Shown in pieces: positions 3,367 through 44,141 of a DNA stretch of 44,409 nucleotides. This stretch comes from Escherichia phage MirsaeidiM_Esher4. The stretch lies in sequence record PQ579973.1, one strand, 5' to 3'. The notes under the pieces are model-generated. The model was not told the origin of the DNA, did no database searches, and worked only from the letters and a program-made list of their open reading frames with translations. The position numbers were made by a program, and so were the translations under genes. Each line of letters starts with the position of its first letter. Position 1 is the stretch's first letter.

Positions 3367-3399
3367 TTGCGCACCCAAATATAATAGGGTACTATTCAC
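3367..3399 (+). promoter_or_regulatory. Sigma70-like promoter (TTGCGC-N17-TACTAT) with overlapping operator ATAATAGGGTACTATTCAC
   Basis: Hexamers with 17-nt spacer upstream of ORF 3438; operator sequence recurs at 23525, 24825 and 28355-28420. Confidence 0.5.
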
Positions 3400-3437: not shown

Positions 3438-3764
3438 ATGCGTACATTAATCTTAGCTTTAGGTTTCATATCTTTTACTGCGGTAGGTTCCACTTGTGAG
3501 CAGATTTATTCTGAAACCCCATTAATAACTGCGGGTTTAATAGAAAGCGCCCCTGTAGCCGCGCAAAAAATGTTTAAAAATGCGGTTATTAAAGAATGTG
3601 AGGCCGCGTATTCAGCAGGAGCAGCAGGGGTTAGCTTCGACCTTGTAACAGGCCTTGTCATGAGTTCTGTGGACATGAAATCACCAGGCTACAGCAGCGC
3701 ATTGGTGGCTACTCGCTTACAAATCGTCTCTCTAGCTTGGGCGGCGGGAGTGGAAAGTAAATAG
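3438..3764 (+). CDS. Small secreted protein of unknown function
   Basis: N-terminal signal-peptide-like segment MRTLILALGFISFTAVGSTC; two Cys in mature part; AT-rich codon usage; own operator-controlled promoter; opposite strand to surrounding tail genes. Confidence 0.6.
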   Translation: MRTLILALGFISFTAVGSTCEQIYSETPLITAGLIESAPVAAQKMFKNAVIKECEAAYSAGAAGVSFDLVTGLVMSSVDMKSPGYSSALVATRLQIVSLAWAAGVESK

Positions 3765-3808
3765 CTATTGTAGTTAAATAAGACAAATCCTAAACACGAG
3801 GAATAAGC

Positions 3809-4939
3809 ATGGCCAGGAAGAAAATAACCGACGAACAGTTACAGGAAGAATTGAACGCCGGTATGAAGAATATCGACATCGCCCGTAAATACGGCATCTC
3901 CGACCGCGTTATTCGTATCCGTAAAGCGAAGCTGGCTAAGAAAGGTGTAGGCCACGGGCGTGACGTTAGTTACCTTGTACCGGACGGCTACAAGATTAAA
4001 GGAACGTCATCACTGGTGGATGAGTTTGGCAACACCAAGTTGCAATGGGTTAAGACCGACACCGATGCCGAACGTCAGGTTGAATTGATGAAAGCCGTAA
4101 TCGAAGGCATGAAGTCGGAGATTACACCAGTTGCACCTGTTAAAGCCGTTCGCGCCAAACGAGACGACAAGCTACTCAACCTTTACACTGTGTCTGATTT
4201 CCATCTCGGTATGCTGGCCTGGGCTGACGAGAGCGGCGACGACTGGGACATGAAGATTGCGGAAGACCTGTTCTCCCGCTGGTTCGACGCAGCGTTCCAG
4301 AAAGCACCGGATGCCGGAACAGGAGTTATTAATCTGCTGGGCGACCTTGCGCATTTCGATAGTCTGGACGCCGTTACACCTGCCAGTGGTCATGTTCTTG
4401 ACGCTGACACCCGCTATCAGAAACTTGTACGCTACATGATTCGTATGGTCCGCCGTGTCATTGATATGGCTCTCGTTAAACATAAAAATGTTCGCTTGCT
4501 TATCGTGCAAGGTAACCACGACGAAAGCGGAATGATTTGGTTAGCTGAGATGTTTAGTACGCTGTACGACAATGAGCCGCGTGTGTTCGTCGATACGTCG
4601 CCGGATGTTTACAAGATGGTGCAACACGGCAAAACGACGCTGTTCTTCCATCATGGGCATAAAGCACGATTCGACGCTATCGAACCGGTTATGATCGCCA
4701 AGTTCCGCAAAGCGTTCGGCGAGAGTGTTTACAGCTACGCCCACGTGGGTCACCTGCACCACCAAAAGATTATAGAAAGCCGTAACATGATTGTTGAGCA
4801 ACACCGCACTCTCGCGGCTAAAGATGCATATGCCTCCCGCGGTGGGTGGATGTCGGGCCGCAGTGCAAACGTAATTACTTATAGCGCCGAATATGGCGAG
4901 GTCGCACGTTTAACTATTTCACCGGAGATGCTTGGATGA
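3809..4939 (+). CDS. HTH-domain calcineurin-like metallophosphoesterase (possible nuclease or phosphatase)
   Basis: N-terminal HTH-like region IDIARKYGISDRVIRIRKAKL; metallophosphoesterase motifs VSDFH, LLGDLAH, VQGNHDE, FFHHGH, VGHLHH. Confidence 0.75.
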   Translation: MARKKITDEQLQEELNAGMKNIDIARKYGISDRVIRIRKAKLAKKGVGHGRDVSYLVPDGYKIKGTSSLVDEFGNTKLQWVKTDTDAERQVELMKAVIEGMKSEITPVAPVKAVRAKRDDKLLNLYTVSDFHLGMLAWADESGDDWDMKIAEDLFSRWFDAAFQKAPDAGTGVINLLGDLAHFDSLDAVTPASGHVLDADTRYQKLVRYMIRMVRRVIDMALVKHKNVRLLIVQGNHDESGMIWLAEMFSTLYDNEPRVFVDTSPDVYKMVQHGKTTLFFHHGHKARFDAIEPVMIAKFRKAFGESVYSYAHVGHLHHQKIIESRNMIVEQHRTLAAKDAYASRGGWMSGRSANVITYSAEYGEVARLTISPEMLG

Positions 4940-5421
4940 AAGATATTGTGATTTTCGATTTAGACGGGACATTGGCAGATGGTACTCATCGTTTACACCT
5001 GCTGCCGAAAGATAACTACGGCGAAACCTGGGCGTGGAAACCATTTAACATGGCGTGCAAAGACGATGCACCCATTAAAGATAACATCGAACTGTGTAAC
5101 GCCCTTAATCGTCGCTATGCCGTTATTATCTTAACAGGCCGTAGTGATGACGCGGAAAAAGAAACCAGAATGTGGTTGCAGCGCCACCGCGTCGAATTTT
5201 ATCAGTTAATCATGCGCAAAAAACACGACAACAGAAAAGACATCGTAATTAAAGAAGAGGTGTTGCGTGCTATTGGGCCGGAGAGAATCTTGTGTGCATT
5301 CGACGACTCTCCAGCGGTAATAAAGCATTTCCGCGAACTCGGCATAACCACTCACGCAGTTACTGAATACGACTGTAACGGGAACTCTACACACTTAAAA
5401 CCACATGGGAGTGATAAATAA
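4936..5421 (+). CDS. HAD-superfamily phosphatase (nucleotidase or polynucleotide 3'-phosphatase-like)
   Basis: HAD motif I FDLDGTL near N-terminus, later ILTGR and FDDS segments; start overlaps upstream stop (ATGA). Confidence 0.7.
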   Translation: MKDIVIFDLDGTLADGTHRLHLLPKDNYGETWAWKPFNMACKDDAPIKDNIELCNALNRRYAVIILTGRSDDAEKETRMWLQRHRVEFYQLIMRKKHDNRKDIVIKEEVLRAIGPERILCAFDDSPAVIKHFRELGITTHAVTEYDCNGNSTHLKPHGSDK

Positions 5422-5975
5422 TGGCTAAGGTAATTATTCTTAATGGTCCTGCGGGCTGCGGGAAAGACACACTTGCTAGGGCGCTGGTAGAAATGGGCTT
5501 TGCGAAGGGTGTCGCCAGTTTCAAGAATCCGATGTTCAATATTGCTATGGCCGCGTTAGGCCGGGATGCTTACCGCGAGTTTCTCGACGGCTACGACGAC
5601 CGGGCGCGGAAAGAAAAGCCAGAGGGTTTCCTTAACGGGTTGTCTCGGCGTCAGTTCATGATTGCCATTTCCGAGCAATTCATTAAACCGGTATTCGGTG
5701 ATGATTATTTCGGTAAGTATCTTGCCGGAAACTTGCCCGACGGCGACGAAGTTTTTGTGGTGTCTGATGGCGGGTTCGCCAGCGAAGTAACCCCTATCGT
5801 TGCCGCGGGGCATGATGTGAGAATCGTCCGCTTGCACAGAGACGGCCATACGTTTGAAGGGGACAGCCGCGGTTACCTGTACGATATTGATGGTGTAAAA
5901 GATTATGACACCTACATCATACCGGGTTACGTTAAATCGAACGCTATAGGCATTGCTTTAAGATTAGGTTTGTAA
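5421..5975 (+). CDS. P-loop kinase, dNMP kinase-like
   Basis: Walker A GPAGCGKDT with GKDT signature and overall resemblance to phage deoxynucleoside monophosphate kinases; start overlaps upstream stop. Confidence 0.6.
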   Translation: MAKVIILNGPAGCGKDTLARALVEMGFAKGVASFKNPMFNIAMAALGRDAYREFLDGYDDRARKEKPEGFLNGLSRRQFMIAISEQFIKPVFGDDYFGKYLAGNLPDGDEVFVVSDGGFASEVTPIVAAGHDVRIVRLHRDGHTFEGDSRGYLYDIDGVKDYDTYIIPGYVKSNAIGIALRLGL

Positions 5976-9564: not shown

Positions 9565-10314
9565 TCACCCCTTCTTACAGTTATCAAAGTGCCACCTCTT
9601 TAGAAGAGATAGCGCCCCTTCGGTTCCGCAATGTGGGCATACCCCGCGCGGGCGTTTCATTCCAGTAAGTTTATCTGAAATTTTCTTGACAGTCTCGCCC
9701 TTTAACGTATGGCCCTTCTTAAAACTTCCGGAGTTAGGTTTTCTATTAACCTTGCCAACGATTCTATTTGGGTCCGCGAACTGGCATTTCTTGCAGCAAT
9801 ATTTACGCGCTCGTGATTTAAAACGGTAGGGGATCGGCTGGTCGCATGTTACACATCGTTGTGGGTTTGCCATGTAATGCTCTATTCTGGCTTTTCTACT
9901 TGCAGTTTCCCCAGTAGCAATTCCTTTATTCCACGCCTTTTGCCCTAGATGTGCTTGTCTGAGATTTTCTATACGTTTATCAGAAAATTTAACACCAGTA
10001 TTCAACCTGGACATCTCTATAGCCCAAGCCTCTTTCGCCAACTTAAAGGAATGTGAGTTAACTTTTGACCTTTGATTGTTTTTAGGGTTAATACACATAA
10101 CCCTCCAGGCGAAAGCTAGTTCTTTAGTCCCGTGTATCTTATAGAGAAGCCAATGCGCAATAAAATGCTGTCTAGCGCTCAAAGATACAATATTGTCAAA
10201 AGTATCTCCACCACCCATGCATTTCGGGACTATGTGATGTTTTTCGGTATACCCACTAAACGGATTGATTTTTGCGTTCGATATTAACTGTTCATAGATT
10301 TTGGCGTAGTTCAT
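9565..10314 (-). CDS. HNH homing endonuclease
   Basis: HNH motif EKHHIVPKCMGGGDTFDNIVSLSARQHFIAH; basic Cys-rich C-terminal repeats; AT-rich; inserted between connector and capsid-decoration genes; 270-bp non-coding gap follows. Confidence 0.85.
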   Translation of the reverse strand: MNYAKIYEQLISNAKINPFSGYTEKHHIVPKCMGGGDTFDNIVSLSARQHFIAHWLLYKIHGTKELAFAWRVMCINPKNNQRSKVNSHSFKLAKEAWAIEMSRLNTGVKFSDKRIENLRQAHLGQKAWNKGIATGETASRKARIEHYMANPQRCVTCDQPIPYRFKSRARKYCCKKCQFADPNRIVGKVNRKPNSGSFKKGHTLKGETVKKISDKLTGMKRPRGVCPHCGTEGALSLLKRWHFDNCKKG

Positions 10315-13701: not shown

Positions 13702-13724
13702 GTTTCCCCTTTCTCGATAAGTAA

Positions 13725-13748
13725 AGCCCCGCCTTAAAGCGGGGCGCT
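13725..13748 (-). terminator. Terminator-like hairpin at 3' end of module A
   Basis: GCCCCGC-CTTAAA-GCGGGGC stem-loop followed on minus strand by UUUACUUAUC. Confidence 0.4.
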
Positions 13749-13779
13749 AGTCCTTATCATTTAAACATAGAAACGGCGT

Positions 13780-13955
13780 AATCTCAGTAAACCAGTTACT
13801 TTTTACACAAGCAATAGAGTATGGCCCTTCCGAACGCGTCAGCGTAACTACACTCAGGACTTACGTCCCGCTCCGTTACCTGCCCGCGCCGCGGTCGCTT
13901 GTTCATACTTCACAAGCTCAGGTGGAGCTTAGCACATTTTTGGTGAAAAGTCAAC
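13780..13955 (-). promoter_or_regulatory. Paralogous non-coding module, copy A (promoter TTGACT-N17-TAAGCT plus conserved hairpins; candidate small RNA or antitermination element)
   Basis: About 80 percent identical to 24977..25151 apart from a variable hairpin; no conserved ORF in any frame; 16-bp perfect palindrome AACTATTCGAATAGTT (13953-13968) overlaps the -35. Confidence 0.5.
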
Positions 13956-14020
13956 TATTCGAATAGTTTATTCCAACATTTACAATTGAGTGGAATAACT
14001 GGAATAGTCACAGGCACTAA

Positions 14021-14043: not shown

Positions 14044-14505
14044 TTATTCTGGCTTAGTAACCTTCGCTGCTTTACTTACGGCCTCTATACCGTCGGCATC
14101 AGTGACTTTAACGAAGTATTCACCAACTGCGTTAACCGTCAGAGACAGAGCCTCTTCCGGGGCGTTTACCACTTCCTTCCCGTCTTTGTACCAGGTCAGC
14201 GCATATGGTGCTTTGCCCGCCTTAACTTCGACAGCGATATTTGCGCTGCCGTCTGCCAGTTCAGCGTCCTGCGGTTGTACGGAGAAATACACATCACCGG
14301 CATCCGCCAGGTACTGAATCTCATAAAGCATACCTGCCGCTGGCAGCGCAATACCGGTCTTGTCCGCAAACGGCATATCGTCCACTGGTGTTCCGAGTAC
14401 ACTTTCGTCTTCAATAAACACCACGTTCTCGCCAGAGCCAGACACGCGGGCGTACTGGACTACGCGACGTGACGGTACATCAGTTACTTTGAAAAAGCCC
14501 ATCAT
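14044..14505 (-). CDS. Ig-like domain protein (putative capsid decoration)
   Basis: Ig-like segment YALTWYKDGKEVVNAPEEALSLTVNAVGEYFVKVTDADG. Confidence 0.5.
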   Translation of the reverse strand: MMGFFKVTDVPSRRVVQYARVSGSGENVVFIEDESVLGTPVDDMPFADKTGIALPAAGMLYEIQYLADAGDVYFSVQPQDAELADGSANIAVEVKAGKAPYALTWYKDGKEVVNAPEEALSLTVNAVGEYFVKVTDADGIEAVSKAAKVTKPE

Positions 14506-15581
14506 TAATCCCCTTTCAGATAATCAGCAACACGTTTATCGAGTTCCGCCATCTGCTTAAGCGTGAGCGGATTCCCGAAACCATCTACAGATATTACGCG
14601 AAACTCTTCCGGCGATATACCGCTGTTACGGAAAATCTTACCTCGCACCGGGCCGAGCGCCTGGTCCTGAAACCACGCCGGTTGTTGTTTAAGGAACTCG
14701 TAGTAAGTGGTGTCTACGCTTACTTGCGTTCCGCCATCAGCACCTTTGGCAGCACGTTTTGCGCCTGCATCAAGGAAGTCGAACTCTGAGCTAATTACAG
14801 GTGCTGTGGTACTTCGACAATTCGGATGGGCCGGCGGCGTAGGGCCTTTACCGATTTCCCATGTCATGCCATCTCTGGCCTTGCATATCGTGCTGGTACG
14901 GCTGTCCAGTGTTGACACCCATTCGTATTTCTCGATGATGTCGCTGTTCTGCCGATAAGTCTCGTTGCGGGCTTCGTTAGATACGTGTGAAAGTGCGGTG
15001 CGGATTACGGTAGCGGCATTGCGCTCTGAGATGTCCGCCAGCCCGCCGGAGCCAACAACGCTCTTGATAATCTGCCGTGTTGTCTGGCCCTGTACAAACC
15101 CCATCTTAACGCCAGTTACTAGGCGCGACACTTCTGTTTCACCCCAGCCTTCCATAAGTTTCGTGAAATCTGCTGGCTTGTCGCTTAAAGCCAGCGGTTG
15201 GAACACAGCGGCGGACCACACCTGCTCAGCGGTAGGGGTAACAAATTCCGTGTTAACGTTAGCCGCGAGTGTCTTCACATTCCACTCGGCCTCGTACGCC
15301 GCCAGTTCCTTAAGGTCTTCTGTCAGCTTCGTTTGCCAGTCACCGGTTAACCCGGTCAGTGCTTCTTCTAGGTCGCGTAACAATTTATTCAGACGTGCTG
15401 TGCTTCGCCCGTCGTCGCCGAATAGCAGCACCTGCCGTTTGATTTCGTCCCGCATCTCCTTAATGAACGGCGCGAGGTCTTTCACCTCACCGGATGCGGT
15501 GCGTTGCAGCCATATCTGGTGGCTGATTAGCGATGTAAGTAAGCTCATAGATAAACCCTGTGGCGCTAAAGTTAATAGCAT
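14505..15581 (-). CDS. Head morphogenesis protein (minor head protein)
   Basis: Position directly downstream of portal gene; C-terminal Cys/His-containing region TSTICKARDGMTWEIGKGPTPPAHPNCRST typical of this family. Start may be ATG 15548 instead. Confidence 0.7.
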   Translation of the reverse strand: MLLTLAPQGLSMSLLTSLISHQIWLQRTASGEVKDLAPFIKEMRDEIKRQVLLFGDDGRSTARLNKLLRDLEEALTGLTGDWQTKLTEDLKELAAYEAEWNVKTLAANVNTEFVTPTAEQVWSAAVFQPLALSDKPADFTKLMEGWGETEVSRLVTGVKMGFVQGQTTRQIIKSVVGSGGLADISERNAATVIRTALSHVSNEARNETYRQNSDIIEKYEWVSTLDSRTSTICKARDGMTWEIGKGPTPPAHPNCRSTTAPVISSEFDFLDAGAKRAAKGADGGTQVSVDTTYYEFLKQQPAWFQDQALGPVRGKIFRNSGISPEEFRVISVDGFGNPLTLKQMAELDKRVADYLKGD

Positions 15582-15617
15582 ACTATAAGAAAGCCCCTTT
15601 CGGGGCTATATGCGGAC

Positions 15618-21125: not shown

Positions 21126-21154
21126 AATATAATAGGGTCTAAGGTAATAGTCAA
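21126..21154 (-). promoter_or_regulatory. Sigma70-like promoter (TTGACT-N17-TATATT) with operator half-site CCCTATTATATT
   Basis: Hexamers with 17-nt spacer read on minus strand; shares AATATAATAGGGT with site at 3379-3392. Confidence 0.4.
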
Positions 21155-21171
21155 CTAGTCATTACAGAAAA

Positions 21172-21205
21172 CAGATAAAAAAATCCCGGCTGGGTCAGTG
21201 CCGGG
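21172..21205 (-). terminator. Intrinsic terminator after endolysin
   Basis: CCCGGC...GCCGGG hairpin followed on minus strand by AUUUUUUUA. Confidence 0.6.
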
Positions 21206-21271
21206 ATAAAACTGGAGAGCAGAGGGATGGAACAGGAGGTGATTTAAGTATCGTCGGATTAGTCTTAGGTG

Positions 21272-21760
21272 TCAACCTTTCACCGCACGCCCGATTGCCT
21301 CAGCCTCCTGCCACGGTTTACCGTCGAACAATGCCAGACGTCCTGCGGTACGGCGACGCAGGCCAAGTAACGGTTTGCCGTTCTGGTTGATGAACAGCGC
21401 CAGCTTAGCCCGCAGCGTCGTAATATCACCCGAACGCAGCGCCTTACCGGTTCCGGTAGTAGCTGCTATCACACCAGCACCTGCGTTATAGACCAGGTCG
21501 CACACAGCGTCGAACTGTGCCTGTGTCAGTGAATGGTGTGCTGCTGCATCGACCGCAGCTACGGCCTTAGCCATATCGCGATTCAGTAACAGGAGGCCCT
21601 GACCCGGAGTGATGGTCTTTCCGGGCGTTACGTCCGGTCCGTAGTGCCCGTAGCCAATAGTCAGGTACTTCTCGTTCGACGTAGCACGATACGCAGTTCC
21701 ACGGAACCCCTCGAACGCGGCGGTAAAATGCAATCCATTATCTGAAATGTTTCGAGACAC
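21272..21760 (-). CDS. Endolysin, phage lysozyme (GH24-like)
   Basis: Motifs AAFEGFRGTAY...TIGYGH and GLRRRTAGRLALF typical of phage lysozymes; start moved to GTG 21760 (GGAGGG RBS) from TTG track start 21811. Confidence 0.8.
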   Translation of the reverse strand: MSRNISDNGLHFTAAFEGFRGTAYRATSNEKYLTIGYGHYGPDVTPGKTITPGQGLLLLNRDMAKAVAAVDAAAHHSLTQAQFDAVCDLVYNAGAGVIAATTGTGKALRSGDITTLRAKLALFINQNGKPLLGLRRRTAGRLALFDGKPWQEAEAIGRAVKG

Positions 21761-23493: not shown

Positions 23494-23524
23494 CTTCCGT
23501 CTCTCCTCTCGTTTGTGTAAATGA

Positions 23525-23553
23525 ATAGTAGCCTATTCTATCTTAGTGTGCAA
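23525..23553 (-). promoter_or_regulatory. Sigma70-like promoter (TTGCAC-N17-TACTAT) with overlapping operator
   Basis: Same architecture as 24825-24853; operator contains palindrome AATAG-N4-CTATT. Confidence 0.5.
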
Positions 23554-24799: not shown

Positions 24800-24824
24800 T
24801 CCTCTGTCTCGTTTCGATAAGTGA

Positions 24825-24853
24825 ATAGTATCCTATTATGTTGGGGTGTGCAA
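24825..24853 (-). promoter_or_regulatory. Sigma70-like promoter (TTGCAC-N17-TACTAT) with overlapping operator
   Basis: Operator GTGAATAGTATCCTATTATG overlaps the -10; about 35 nt upstream of ATG 24799. Confidence 0.5.
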
Positions 24854-24976
24854 GAGAATAGTTACGTTGCCGTTGTGACTCTTTCGTTTAATGGGATAGC
24901 GAGCGAAACGAAACGAACGTGGTGCCGAAGGCACCAAGAGTGAGTGAGTGAGCTTGCGGTTCTAACCTACGGCAAA

Positions 24977-25151
24977 TCAGTAACTTAGATAATTAGACAG
25001 GAATTACAATAGACTATGGCCCTTCCGAATGCGCCAGCGAGACTCACTCCACACGTCGAGACGTGCTCGTTTCGCCTGCCGCGCACCGCGGTCGCTTGTT
25101 CATACTTCACAAGCTCAGGCTGAGCTTACCATATTTCTTAGTAAAAGTCAA
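24977..25151 (-). promoter_or_regulatory. Paralogous non-coding module, copy B (promoter TTGACT-N17-TAAGCT plus conserved hairpins; candidate small RNA or antitermination element)
   Basis: Paralog of 13780..13955; -35 and -10 at identical relative positions; followed on minus strand by hairpin GGTGCCGAAGGCACC (24921-24935) and U-rich tract. Confidence 0.5.
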
Positions 25152-25256
25152 TACTAGTAGCATCTTTTGTATTTTAGTAACTTTGTGTGGTGTTTTGGTT
25201 GCTTTTACAAAGTTACCGCCTTATACTTCGGTATATCTTACATAGGAGAACGTGAA

Positions 25257-25427
25257 ATGACTATCAATGAAGTTGCAGAATTAATCGGTGTCACCCGCCA
25301 GACAATTAATAACTGGATTAAGAGTGGAAAGTTTCCAGATTGCGGCGTTAAAGTAATGGGCCGCCGGATGCCGGGAACATTCGACCGTAATAAAGTTGAA
25401 GCGTGGATTAAGGAGAACGTGAAATGA
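25257..25427 (+). CDS. AlpA/excisionase-family HTH DNA-binding protein
   Basis: MTINEVAELIGVTRQTINNWIKSGKFP signature; ATG 25257 with AGGAGAA RBS. Confidence 0.6.
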   Translation: MTINEVAELIGVTRQTINNWIKSGKFPDCGVKVMGRRMPGTFDRNKVEAWIKENVK

Positions 25428-28094: not shown

Positions 28095-28103
28095 GTAAAA
28101 ATA

Positions 28104-28122
28104 AAGGGGCGTTAAGCCCCTT
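28104..28122. terminator. Bidirectional terminator hairpin
   Basis: AGGGGC-GTTAA-GCCCCT between convergent primase and repressor genes. Confidence 0.5.
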
Positions 28123-28327
28123 CACCGAACGCCAGCCACTTGGCGTCTACTTCAAGCACTTCCGCCAGTTTAAACAGCGTCGCCGGGCGGACGTCCTGAG
28201 TTACACCGAGTGCAAGCTGGTTAATTGCGCCTTGGGAAACACCGGCCAGGACAGCCAGATGGCGCTGGGAGATACCGAGTTCTTTACGGCGTTGCTCTAC
28301 ACGGATACCTAGTTCAGATGGTTGCAT
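28112..28327 (-). CDS. XRE-family HTH transcriptional regulator (Cro/CI-like)
   Basis: Signature ISQRHLAVLAGVSQGAINQLALG; divergent from operator-containing promoters. Confidence 0.75.
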   Translation of the reverse strand: MQPSELGIRVEQRRKELGISQRHLAVLAGVSQGAINQLALGVTQDVRPATLFKLAEVLEVDAKWLAFGEGA

Positions 28328-28354: not shown

Positions 28355-28420
28355 GTGAATAGTACCATATTAATTATTTTAGAAAAGCCCATTGACAAGT
28401 GAATAGTTCGCTATTATAGT
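28355..28420. promoter_or_regulatory. Divergent promoter region with two operator copies (TTGACA-N17-TATAGT rightward; leftward regulator promoter)
   Basis: Operators GTGAATAGTACCATATTAAT (28355-28374) and GTGAATAGTTCGCTATTATAG (28399-28419); TTGACA at 28392-28397. Confidence 0.55.
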
Positions 28421-30536: not shown

Positions 30537-31033
30537 GTTTAGTTCGGGAGCGTTTCATTTATGAAAACGGGAAACTAATCTATCGCCACAATACAAAAAG
30601 AATGTTAGCTGGTCAGGAGGCGGGAAGCCTCCACCATTCAGGGTATGTGCAGATATACATTAATTGTAAGTCCTACCAAAGAAGCCGTTTAATATGGGGG
30701 TACCACAACGGCCCTATACCTGAAGGGTTTGAGGTGGACCATATAAATGCGATAAGAAATGATGACAGGATAGAGAATCTCCAGTTAATCGCTCATAGCG
30801 ATAATGTGGCTAAAGGCGGCATTCAAACCGGAAGAAGTCATAACAAAAGCGGGTACACTGGCGTGTTCTGGCGCAAAAGCCACGGTAAATGGCAGGCTGG
30901 GATTACCGTAAACGGGCGATATCGTTACCTTGGACTATTCGAAACTCCTGAACAGGCTAACGTGGCAAGAAAGAATTTTGAAAGTAATTTGCTAAAAGAA
31001 GTTGACTACCGAATAGCGAACTATTATAGTTAA
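30533..31033 (+). CDS. HNH homing endonuclease with AP2 DNA-binding domain
   Basis: HNH motif GYHNGPIPEGFEVDHINAIRNDDRIENLQLIAHSDN; AP2-like SGYTGVFWRKSHGKWQAGITVNGRYRYLGLFETPEQA; AT-rich; start moved to ATG 30533. Confidence 0.8.
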   Translation: MSLVRERFIYENGKLIYRHNTKRMLAGQEAGSLHHSGYVQIYINCKSYQRSRLIWGYHNGPIPEGFEVDHINAIRNDDRIENLQLIAHSDNVAKGGIQTGRSHNKSGYTGVFWRKSHGKWQAGITVNGRYRYLGLFETPEQANVARKNFESNLLKEVDYRIANYYS

Positions 31034-34315: not shown

Positions 34316-34596
34316 CTAAAGAGGGCCGCGTACAGAAATACGCAAAAGACCGATTCGAGGCCCTTGGCGGCCTCGTTCGCAAACTCTCCTACGAGGGGCG
34401 TTCCGGCGCCCCAGACCTGCTGGTAATTCTCCCCGGCGGCATAGTCTGGTTCGTCGAGGTTAAGAAAGACGAGAACACGAAGCCAGACCCGCACCAGCTA
34501 CGGGAACATGAGCGGATGCGTAAACGTGGTGCGAATGTTTTTGTCGTTGGTTCGTTTAAACAGGTTGACGACCTAATAGCTAGCTATTATAGTTAG
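34312..34596 (+). CDS. VRR-NUC domain nuclease
   Basis: Segment GAPDLLVILPGGIVWFVEVKK matches the D...E.K core of VRR-NUC; start moved to ATG 34312. Confidence 0.55.
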   Translation: MTKEGRVQKYAKDRFEALGGLVRKLSYEGRSGAPDLLVILPGGIVWFVEVKKDENTKPDPHQLREHERMRKRGANVFVVGSFKQVDDLIASYYS

Positions 34597-34626: not shown

Positions 34627-34818
34627 ATGAAACACGAATATGACCGCAAACCAGCACGTGACATCGTACCGGGTGACATGATTTTCAACGTTAAGACACG
34701 TCAACCTGTTGCCGTTGATACGGTGTACGTCGAGTCAAACGGTAAACTGGTTATCGAAGATGTAACCGGTAACGTTACGGCGTTCGGGCGTAAAGAGTTA
34801 GTTCTGGTGGCGAAATGA
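34627..34818 (+). CDS. Hypothetical protein
   Basis: Track ORF; ATGA-coupled to methyltransferase gene. Confidence 0.35.
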   Translation: MKHEYDRKPARDIVPGDMIFNVKTRQPVAVDTVYVESNGKLVIEDVTGNVTAFGRKELVLVAK

Positions 34819-44106: not shown

Positions 44107-44141
44107 AGTAAGATACTCCTATTATTTTAGGAGATACTAAC

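What the first reader, a model, noticed from the sequence alone, without database searches (positions are those of the whole stretch)
28355..28420. Repeated roughly 20-bp operator defines a regulon, probably controlled by the XRE-type regulator
A conserved sequence (consensus approximately ATAATAGG-N-TACTATTCAC, containing the inverted repeat AATAG-N4-CTATT) occurs at 3381-3399, 23520-23541, 24821-24840, 28355-28374 and 28399-28419, with half-site-like copies at 21126-21138 and near 44117. In each full site it overlaps the -10 or spacer of a sigma70-like promoter with a 17-nt spacer. Two copies lie in the divergent region between the 71-aa XRE regulator gene and the acidic early gene, the classic layout of an autoregulated repressor. 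A phage with no integrase thus has a repressor-operator circuit controlling several early units, including the accessory island in the tail cluster.
Basis: seen in the sequence. Interest (0 to 1): 0.6.

Follow-up and report, generated by a model that had tools for sequence, protein, structure and literature searches.

The report
Cro-type operator at seven phage promoters
A 14-bp palindrome (AATAG-N4-CTATT) sits on the core of seven promoters of this lytic E. coli phage and is most likely the binding site through which the phage's small 434-Cro-like protein turns down its own transcription; this is an ordinary kind of circuit, and earlier genome papers mislabelled the same sequence as "phage promoters".

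Summary
The window is a Kagunavirus, a lytic E. coli siphovirus. AATAG-N4-CTATT occurs exactly 6 times (0.03 expected), and a seventh copy with one mismatch lies at the regulator's own promoter.

Every site overlaps a sigma70-type core promoter, in two registers that differ by 6 bp. That fits repression by occlusion, not activation and not a promoter element. In 50 Kagunavirus and Jerseyvirus loci the arms never change, while the central 4 bp vary.

The 71-aa XRE protein is 41% identical to phage 434 Cro, whose operators are also 14 bp. It is the only recognisable DNA-binding protein found in all motif-bearing genomes examined. The other candidate, an HTH_17 protein, is absent from two genomes that keep the motif.

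Caveats:
- The Jerseyvirus orthologue has a different recognition helix but the same operator arms.
- Cornellvirus has the regulator but not the motif.
- One coarse RNA-seq study does not show the expected shut-off.

The repeat was already published as seven "PHIRE phage promoters", so the new part is the operator reading. Verdict: a new member of a known kind, of moderate interest. Binding itself is untested.

The parts
28112..28327 (-). xre: a 71-aa single-domain HTH_3 protein like 434 Cro; the proposed repressor
   Evidence: Pfam HTH_3 E=2e-11. 434 Cro (PDB 1zug) E=5.5e-7, 41% identity, same length. AlphaFold2 model pLDDT 76; Foldseek finds HipB, 434 Cro, P22 c2, SinR and C-proteins. Present in all Kagunavirus and Jerseyvirus loci that reach the position.
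28103..28122 (-). intrinsic terminator that ends the monocistronic xre unit, facing the end of the convergent helicase-primase gene
28358..28371 (-). S4: operator at xre's own promoter, with one mismatched arm (AATAT-GGTA-CTATT on the - strand). It overlaps the TACTAT -10 at 28359-28364.
   Evidence: The mismatch is the same in all 35 Kagunavirus copies of this region.
28402..28415 (+). S5: operator in the spacer of the strongest promoter, TTGACA (28392-28397)-17-TATAGT (28415-28420). This promoter drives the 173-aa acidic gene, the 90-aa gene and the DUF2800/PD-(D/E)XK nuclease unit.
31012..31025 (+).
34575..34588 (+). S7: operator in the spacer of TTGACG (34565-34570)-17-TATAGT (34588-34593), which drives the 63-aa gene, the C5-methylase and the SNF2 helicase unit.
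3383..3396 (+). S1: operator whose right arm lies within the -10 of TTGCGC (3367-3372)-17-TACTAT (3390-3395). This promoter drives the accessory island inside the tail cluster.
23524..23537 (-). S2: operator over the -10 of TTGCAC (23548-23553)-17-TACTAT (23525-23530), on the - strand. The unit holds small genes and then the holin and endolysin genes.
24824..24837 (-). S3: operator over the -10 of TTGCAC (24848-24853)-17-TACTAT (24825-24830), on the - strand. The unit holds six small genes (24799 down to 23561).
21146..21159 (-). Weak, conserved one-mismatch site (ACTAG-TTGA-CTATT) over the -35 of the late-operon promoter TTGACT (21149-21154)-17-TATATT (21126-21131)
   Evidence: Kagunavirus keeps ACTAG-TTGA-CTATT and Jerseyvirus keeps AATAG-TTGA-CTAGT.
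25199..25227 (+). Comparison promoter without an operator: TTGCTT-17-TATACT, ahead of the HTH_17 and helicase-primase operon
   Evidence: equivalent promoters in Ent1 and VSiP
25257..25427 (+). HTH_17 (excisionase/MerR-like) protein of 56 aa: the rival candidate binder, not favoured
   Evidence: Pfam HTH_17 E=2.4e-10; phrog_66. Absent from the motif-bearing loci L021 and L031.

Best explanation
The palindrome K-AATAG-N4-CTATT-M (a 14-bp core) is an operator. A dimer of the phage's 71-aa 434-Cro-like protein (28112-28327, - strand) binds it and blocks host RNA polymerase. Seven sigma70-type promoters carry it. In class A (28392, 31002, 34565) it fills the spacer from about -25 to -12. In class B (3367, 23553, 24853 and xre's own promoter) its right arm lies within the TACTAT -10 hexamer, covering about -19 to -6. 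As the protein accumulates it turns down the replication units, the small-gene units, the unit that runs into the lysis genes, the RNA-repair-like island and, through the weaker site S4, its own gene. The late-operon promoter has only a conserved one-mismatch site and the HTH_17/primase promoter has none, so they should respond less or not at all. This is the lambda/434 Cro role (turn-down of early transcription during lytic growth) without a cI partner, spread over the whole genome. Shown: the sites, their statistics, their positions, their conservation and the protein family. Inferred: binding, dimerisation, repression and timing.
For: (1) The motif is far above chance: 6 exact sites against 0.03 expected. 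All seven sites lie 25-68 nt upstream of a start codon.
(2) Two registers. The operator starts 4 nt (class A) or 10 nt (class B) after the -35. The conserved leader elements, however, keep a constant distance from the assigned -10 in both classes: ACGAG at 12-13 nt and ACACCAACAAT at 6-7 nt. So the -10 assignments hold and the site moves by half a helical turn. Occlusion tolerates that; an activator or a promoter element would not.
(3) Footprint. In orthologous alignments that were not anchored on the motif, arm identity is 0.97-1.00, centre identity 0.67-0.95 and the spacer before the arm 0.77-0.96. The arms are invariant in 37 Kagunavirus and 13 Jerseyvirus loci.
(4) Protein family. HTH_3 and 434 Cro at E=5.5e-7. 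A 44%-identical homologue in Klebsiella phage RothD sits in the Cro position, next to 14-bp ACAA-N6-TTGT operators. The family therefore binds 14-bp palindromes of this geometry.
(5) Layout. Two sites lie in the xre/divergent-promoter region, and the xre-proximal one keeps the same weakening mismatch in 35 of 35 genomes.
(6) Phyletic test. XRE is present in every motif-bearing locus and is 94-99% identical within Kagunavirus (78% in L038). The other HTH protein is missing in L031 (6 exact sites) and L021 (3 sites), and varies from 64 to 100%.
(7) From my own recall of the 434 repressor-operator structures, not checked here: the Gln that reads A1 and the Gln that reads base pair 4 align with Q32 and Q37 of this protein. 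The operator keeps A at positions 1 and 4 and differs at positions 2-3, where 434's Gln29 is replaced by Gly (alignment).
Against: No binding data exist. The Jerseyvirus orthologue is 51% identical and has helix SQSLITH instead of SQGAINQ, yet the same AATAG arms. Its half-site does differ at the flank: T only, against G or T in Kagunavirus. Cornellvirus has the orthologue (41-43% identity) but no motif, and I found no alternative palindrome there. In Jerseyvirus the two xre-proximal sites are the poorest matches, with 1 and 2 mismatches. The one published time-course RNA-seq of a Kagunavirus (PMC12645636) classes the XRE orthologue as 'middle', and classes genes of the S1, S6 and S7 units as 'late'. 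That is not the early-peak-then-decline pattern the model predicts. The experiment was poorly synchronised, though: phage reads were at most 8.9% of the total, and sampling ran to 120 min against a 30-min latent period. Transcription start sites are not mapped.
Confidence: 0.6

Rival explanations
1. The palindrome is a repressive operator, but a different protein binds it: the HTH_17 protein (25257-25427), an unrecognised small phage protein, or a host factor.
For: At genus level HTH_17 tracks the motif: it is present in Kagunavirus and Jerseyvirus and undetectable in Cornellvirus. It is 80% identical between the two genera, where XRE is only 51% identical. XRE's recognition helix changes between the genera while the arms do not. 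The 63-aa ORF 34627-34818 is also universal in both genera and absent from Cornellvirus. In the published RNA-seq HTH_17 is an early gene, made from a promoter without an operator.
Against: L031 covers the full 20 kb, has XRE at 96% identity and 6 exact sites, and lacks HTH_17. L021 lacks it too. In both, a 47-aa zinc-ribbon ORF and a 149-aa ORF take its place. Within Kagunavirus the HTH_17 alleles drop to 64% identity with a changed recognition helix (VSPMTLNRWLRSG against VTRQTINNWIKSG), yet the arms stay the same. From general knowledge, HTH_17/excisionase-type proteins usually bind direct repeats, not 14-bp inverted repeats. The 63-aa ORF looks all-beta and has no Pfam DNA-binding match. 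Three genera amount to a single evolutionary contrast.
Confidence: 0.2
2. The repeat is a phage-specific promoter element, as published from PHIRE scans. It would be recognised by a phage RNA polymerase, or by host polymerase with a phage activator, rather than being a repressor site.
For: [quoted passage not shown] Golestan: seven PHIRE promoters (PMC7203180). SGP-C: TAATAGTACCCTATTATGTT (PMC8790156). Class B promoters match the sigma70 consensus poorly (7 of 12), so they might need help. The RNA-seq classes several motif-bearing units as late.
Against: No RNA polymerase gene is present. The large ORFs are tailspike, J, helicase-primase, PolA, tape measure, terminase and portal. The core is a true palindrome, and its asymmetric flanks flip orientation between class A and class B relative to the direction of transcription. 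The site occupies two registers 6 bp apart relative to the -10 and the leader. It lies on the spacer or the -10 itself, where an activator cannot sit together with sigma. Class A promoters are near-consensus sigma70 promoters without any help (10-11 of 12).
Confidence: 0.1
3. The similarity is only shared ancestry of duplicated promoter-leader cassettes, and no factor reads the palindrome.
For: Leaders are clearly paralogous between units: ACACCAACAAT...ATAAGGAATT at S1 and S7, and AAACGAGAGGAGAG at S2, S3, S5 and the late promoter. Part of each arm overlaps sequence that a -10 needs anyway.
Against: The left arm AATAG has no promoter role, yet it is as invariant as the -10, while neighbouring spacer bases and the 4-bp centre vary. 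The palindrome is kept in two registers and in two genera. Promoters with paralogous leaders but no left arm exist (the late promoter). So the palindrome does not simply travel with the cassette.
Confidence: 0.05

Closest known systems
Phage 434 Cro (and lambda Cro) acting at the OR/OL operators
   Same: The protein family is the same: 41% identity to 434 Cro, E=5.5e-7, 71 aa, a single HTH_3 domain. The operators are 14-bp palindromes lying on core promoters. The regulator is transcribed divergently from a strong early promoter, with operators in between. The expected role is turn-down of early transcription during lytic growth plus autoregulation through a weaker site.
   Different: There is no cI partner, no integrase and no OR1-2-3 triplet. 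The operator sequence is AATAG-N4-CTATT, not ACAA-N6-TTGT. At least seven operators are scattered over 31 kb at separate promoters, instead of two clusters. The host phage is virulent. Binding is untested.
PHIRE-predicted 'phage-specific promoters' of Kagunavirus and Jerseyvirus (fBC-Eco01, Golestan, SGP-C)
   Same: It is the same sequence element, with the same copy number of seven (PMC9825357, PMC7203180, PMC8790156).
   Different: Those papers read it as a promoter, and one assigns it to a phage-encoded RNA polymerase that these genomes do not encode. Here it is read as an operator superimposed on sigma70 promoters and linked to the Cro-like gene.
Controller (C) proteins of restriction-modification systems (C.AhdI, C.BclI, C.Esp1396I) and their C-boxes
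   Same: They are small XRE-fold dimers found among the structural neighbours. They bind palindromes at their own promoter with graded affinities to time expression after entry into a new cell.
   Different: C proteins act on one or two local promoters and first activate, then repress. Here there are many dispersed sites, all in repressing positions. No sequence-level membership was tested.
Loading sites for Q/AlpA-type antiterminators, located between the -35 and the -10
   Same: In class A the site lies between the -35 and the -10. The phage also encodes a small protein whose weaker Pfam matches include Phage_AlpA (E=0.02).
   Different: Class B sites overlap the -10. No conserved pause-inducing -10-like element was seen downstream. 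Genomes without the HTH_17 protein keep the motif.

Membership tests
434/lambda Cro-type repressor-operator pair (XRE/HTH_3 family) | The protein has the Cro/C1-type HTH_3 fold | tested here: met
   Pfam HTH_3 E=2e-11, above the gathering score. The AlphaFold2 model matches HipB, 434 Cro, P22 c2 and SinR with TM about 0.65-0.70.
434/lambda Cro-type repressor-operator pair (XRE/HTH_3 family) | Sequence homology to a characterised Cro | tested here: met
   434 Cro (1zug/2cro/3cro) E=5.5e-7; 434 repressor DNA-binding domain E=1.3e-5. RothD Cro, between cI and cII, 44% identity.
434/lambda Cro-type repressor-operator pair (XRE/HTH_3 family) | Operator is a short inverted repeat (about 14-17 bp) with conserved arms and a variable centre | tested here: met
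   AATAG-N4-CTATT: 6 exact copies against 0.03 expected. Arm identity 0.97-1.00 against 0.67-0.95 for the centre.
434/lambda Cro-type repressor-operator pair (XRE/HTH_3 family) | Operators overlap the core promoters they control, including the regulator's own promoter | tested here: met
   Shown by sequence only. The sites span the spacer or the -10 of seven TTGNNN-17-TANNNT promoters, and the leader register supports the -10 assignments. Start sites are not mapped.
434/lambda Cro-type repressor-operator pair (XRE/HTH_3 family) | The protein binds these operators specifically, as a dimer | not testable with these tools
   There is no protein-DNA modelling or experiment here. Comparative evidence is mixed.
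434/lambda Cro-type repressor-operator pair (XRE/HTH_3 family) | Regulator specificity and operator co-vary between lineages | tested here: inconclusive
   Kagunavirus and Jerseyvirus have different helices but the same arms; only the flanking base differs (G/T against T). Cornellvirus has a third helix variant and no detectable motif.
Lambdoid immunity region (cI-cro switch of a temperate phage) | A cI-type repressor with a C-terminal dimerisation/cleavage domain, plus an integrase | tested here: not met
   No integrase or recombinase among the large ORFs or in the annotated relative. XRE is a single 71-aa domain. The genus is described as strictly lytic (PMC12919940).
Phage-RNA-polymerase promoters (the PHIRE interpretation in the literature) | The phage encodes its own RNA polymerase | tested here: not met
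   No such gene. All ORFs over 400 aa are assigned to other functions.
Phage-RNA-polymerase promoters (the PHIRE interpretation in the literature) | The element has a fixed orientation and distance relative to the transcribed gene | tested here: not met
   The core is palindromic. The asymmetric flanks flip between the classes, and there are two registers 6 bp apart.
Q/AlpA-type antiterminator loading site | Site between the -35 and the -10, and the cognate small protein always present | tested here: not met
   Class B sites overlap the -10. HTH_17 is absent from L021 and L031, which keep the motif.

The most novel reading that the evidence does not exclude
Nearly every strong promoter of these 'strictly lytic' therapeutic phages carries the operator of one Cro-like repressor, while the primase operon does not. 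The circuit could therefore let Kagunavirus and Jerseyvirus genomes sit in a repressed, episomal carrier state with superinfection immunity. That would explain the lysogen-like immune clones reported for the Jerseyvirus-like phage SGP-C (PMC8790156).
Probability: 0.1. Interest if true: 0.7.

Novelty: new member of a known kind. Interest (0 to 1): 0.4.

Why it matters
Kagunavirus and Jerseyvirus phages are widely isolated for therapy and biocontrol, and Kagunavirus is attractive as a small engineering chassis (PMC11990801). Their genome papers either list this element as 'phage promoters' or state that no repressor is present (PMC12919940).

If the operator reading is right, one 71-aa protein sets the level of seven transcription units. 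That has three consequences:
- It gives a simple handle for engineering payload expression.
- It predicts cross-regulation between co-infecting relatives that share the operator.
- It flags a repressor circuit that safety assessments now overlook.

It would also be a clean natural example of a Cro-only network in a virulent phage, with graded-affinity sites: perfect at the target promoters, one mismatch at the protein's own promoter and at the late promoter.

Tried and rejected
(1) Cornellvirus motif. I looked for a different operator that would co-vary with its XRE helix. I used exhaustive counts of 5-mer palindromes with gaps 0-8, the repeat finder, promoter alignment by register and reading of the intergenic regions. 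Nothing turned up.

(2) Motif-to-regulator scan of IMG/VR with ATAATAGNNNNCTATTAT, followed by tblastn for XRE in the 120 loci. This gave only chance hits in AT-rich contigs plus Jerseyviruses, so there is no independent lineage.

(3) The large protein search with XRE returned only relatives of 77% identity or more on phage contigs of about 40-45 kb. It was of no use for distant co-variation.

(4) A profile search for distant HTH_17 relatives found the same phages and one 42% hit on a 4.5-kb contig.

(5) A literature search for the 434 contact residues found nothing usable. Those contacts are quoted from memory and marked as such.

(6) A text search for the motif sequence itself was uninformative.

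(7) Host-factor idea. I could recall no E. coli regulator with this consensus; an ArgR box does not fit by inspection. I could not scan host genomes, because the pattern has fewer than 14 specified bases.

(8) An alternative -10 reading for class B (TATAAT/CATAAT in the left arm) was rejected. It has no -35 at 16-18 nt, and it breaks the constant distance from the -10 to the leader elements.

(9) Rfam over the whole window gave no hits.

Full report
**Identity of the window.** The region 27000-31000 matches Escherichia phages of the genus Kagunavirus (Guernseyvirinae) at 90-96% identity, and Salmonella Jerseyviruses at 80-90%. Gene order follows the annotated relative Schulenburg. The structural and lysis genes lie on the - strand. 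A rightward replication block runs from 28.4 to 37 kb, and an accessory island (3438-5975, + strand) is inserted in the tail cluster. Pfam scans of the large ORFs found terminase, portal-associated, Mu-F-like, nuclease, methylase and SNF2 domains. They found no integrase and no RNA polymerase.

**The observation.** The informative core is the palindrome AATAG-N4-CTATT. It has 6 exact copies against 0.03 expected, and none of 100 shuffles reaches 6. A seventh copy with one mismatch (28358-28371) lies in front of the XRE gene. Among the other one-mismatch hits, 21146-21159 overlaps the -35 of the late-operon promoter, and 13946-13959 overlaps the -35 of a small non-coding unit. The hits at 15574 and 41082 have no obvious promoter context.

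**Anatomy: two promoter classes.**
- Class A is TTGACN, 4 nt, AATAG-N4-CTAT, then TATAGT (28392, 31002, 34565). These are the three best sigma70 matches on the + strand.
- Class B is TTGCRC, 10 nt, AATAG-N4-CTATT, where TACTAT is the -10 (3367 on the + strand; 23553 and 24853 on the - strand). The xre promoter has the same -10 but a poor -35.

All spacers are 17 nt.

An internal check supports the -10 assignments. Paralogous leader elements lie at a constant distance from the assigned -10 in both classes. ACGAG is at 12-13 nt in S2, S3, S5 and the late promoter. ACACCAACAAT is at 6-7 nt in S1 and S7. The operator, by contrast, starts 4 or 10 nt after the -35. So the same palindrome sits in two registers 6 bp apart, and both are on the core promoter. 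Steric repression tolerates that. An activator, an antiterminator loading site or an oriented promoter element would not.

Some promoters lack a full site. These are 25199-25227 (HTH_17 and primase operon), 21275-21247, the late promoter and the two non-coding units. The palindrome is therefore not simply part of every promoter.

**Conservation.** The arms are unchanged in 37 Kagunavirus loci from IMG/VR (XRE 94-99% identical, one at 78%) and in 13 Jerseyvirus loci. The 4-bp centre varies; at S5, for example, it reads CGAA, CTAA, TGAA, CAAA, CGAG or CTAG. In BLAST-anchored alignments of orthologous promoter regions, arm identity is 0.97-1.00, centre identity 0.67-0.95, and the spacer before the arm 0.77-0.96. 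The one-mismatch arm of S4 is identical in all 35 Kagunavirus copies. The late-promoter site also keeps one mismatch, in opposite arms in the two genera. This looks like graded affinity. The half-site matrix shows G or T before AATAG in Kagunavirus and only T in Jerseyvirus. Cornellvirus loci have no copy, and I found no substitute palindrome there.

**Who binds it?** The 71-aa product of 28112-28327 is an HTH_3 protein. It is 41% identical to 434 Cro (E=5.5e-7) and has the same length. The structure prediction agrees. More distant homologues are Cro or cI proteins of lambdoid phages. In Klebsiella phage RothD the homologue lies between cI and cII, next to 14-bp ACAA-N6-TTGT operators. The family's operator geometry therefore matches the 5-4-5 palindrome here.

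A second DNA-binding protein, HTH_17 (25257-25427), had to be taken seriously. It is present in Kagunavirus and Jerseyvirus at 80% identity and absent from Cornellvirus, which parallels the motif. XRE, by contrast, is only 51% identical between the two genera and has a changed recognition helix.

Natural variation within Kagunavirus argues against HTH_17:
- L031 has XRE at 96% identity and six exact sites but no HTH_17. L021 lacks it as well. In both, unrelated ORFs replace it.
- Other Kagunaviruses carry HTH_17 alleles of only 64% identity with a different recognition helix, yet their arms are unchanged.
- XRE is the only recognisable HTH protein present in all loci within 10 kb.

The changed helix in Jerseyvirus is a real caveat but not disqualifying. 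From general knowledge, 434 Cro and 434 repressor, and lambda Cro and cI, read the same operators with different helices. I put XRE as the binder at about 0.6.

[quoted passage not shown] Golestan lists seven PHIRE promoters (PMC7203180). The Jerseyvirus-like SGP-C reports TAATAGTACCCTATTATGTT, and also lysogen-like immune clones (PMC8790156). None of the papers I read links the element to the Cro-like gene, and these phages have no RNA polymerase gene.

One RNA-seq time course of a Kagunavirus exists (PMC12645636). Its gene 004 is the XRE orthologue and is classed 'middle'. Gene 008 is HTH_17 and is classed 'early'. Genes of the S1, S6 and S7 units are classed 'late'. This does not show the predicted shut-off. 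However, phage reads never exceeded 8.9%, and sampling ran to 120 min against a 30-min latent period. I treat it as weak evidence against the timing model, not against the operator.

**Verdict.** The repeat is real and highly non-random. It has the signature of a repressor operator superimposed on sigma70 promoters. It is a new member of a well-known kind (a Cro-type circuit) in a virulent phage group. Its value lies mainly in correcting the published 'phage promoter' annotation and as an engineering and safety handle.

Noticed in passing
window 13715-13954 and 24908-25151 (- strand): Two paralogous non-coding units, about 80% identical over some 190 nt. Each has its own TTGACT-17-TAAGCT promoter (-35 at 13949-13954 and at 25146-25151) and an intrinsic terminator (13726-13745 and 24920-24936). 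They would give RNAs of about 200 nt. There is no Rfam match. The 25-kb copy is conserved in other Kagunaviruses. They are candidate phage small RNAs.
   Followed up: partly
window 13953-13968: A perfect 16-bp palindrome, AACTATTCGAATAGTT, made of the operator arms in the reverse order (CTATT-CG-AATAG). It abuts the -35 of the 13.9-kb non-coding unit. That -35 is itself part of a one-mismatch site, AATAG-TTGA-CTTTT.
   Followed up: no
window 21176-21275 (- strand): A strong promoter-like site, TTGACA-17-GATACT (21275-21247), lies at the end of the endolysin gene. About 40 nt downstream comes a hairpin (21183-21207) followed by a T7 run, and then the late promoter. The arrangement is conserved in Jerseyvirus Ent1 and recalls lambda PR'-tR' with its short transcript.
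   Followed up: no
window 3438-5975 (+): The island inside the tail cluster encodes a 108-aa protein annotated in a relative as Imm-like, a metallophosphoesterase, a PNKP-type HAD phosphatase domain, and a P-loop protein with a weak, sub-threshold AAA_18 match. The set looks like RNA end-healing or repair.
   Followed up: partly
L001 29363-29692 (phage Schulenburg, gene 026): The annotated start of this gene lies upstream of the promoter and operator, so the ORF reads through them. The likely true start is the ATG at L001 29502, which follows a GGAG.
   Followed up: partly
L031 12559-13144 and L021 3624-4209: In these two Kagunavirus contigs the HTH_17 gene and its neighbour are replaced by a 47-aa CxxC...CxxC zinc-ribbon ORF and a 149-aa ORF with no Pfam match.
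   Followed up: partly
L052 about 9958-10177 (Salmonella phage SS3e): The XRE orthologue is split by a one-base frameshift near codon 17. This may be a sequencing error in an old record.
   Followed up: partly
window 15574-15587: A one-mismatch palindrome (AATAGCATACTATA) lies directly after a terminator (15592-15607) and overlaps the annotated ATG of the Mu-F-like gene 14505-15581. It has no promoter context and is unexplained.
   Followed up: no
L040 11992-14643 (Cornellvirus VSiP): The helicase-primase gene is co-directional with XRE, not convergent as in Kagunavirus and Jerseyvirus. A TTGACT-18-TATACT promoter points back toward the shared terminator.
   Followed up: no
window 34627-34818 (+): A 63-aa ORF, the first gene after S7, is 92-95% conserved across Kagunavirus and Jerseyvirus and absent from Cornellvirus. 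It looks all-beta and has no informative family match.
   Followed up: partly
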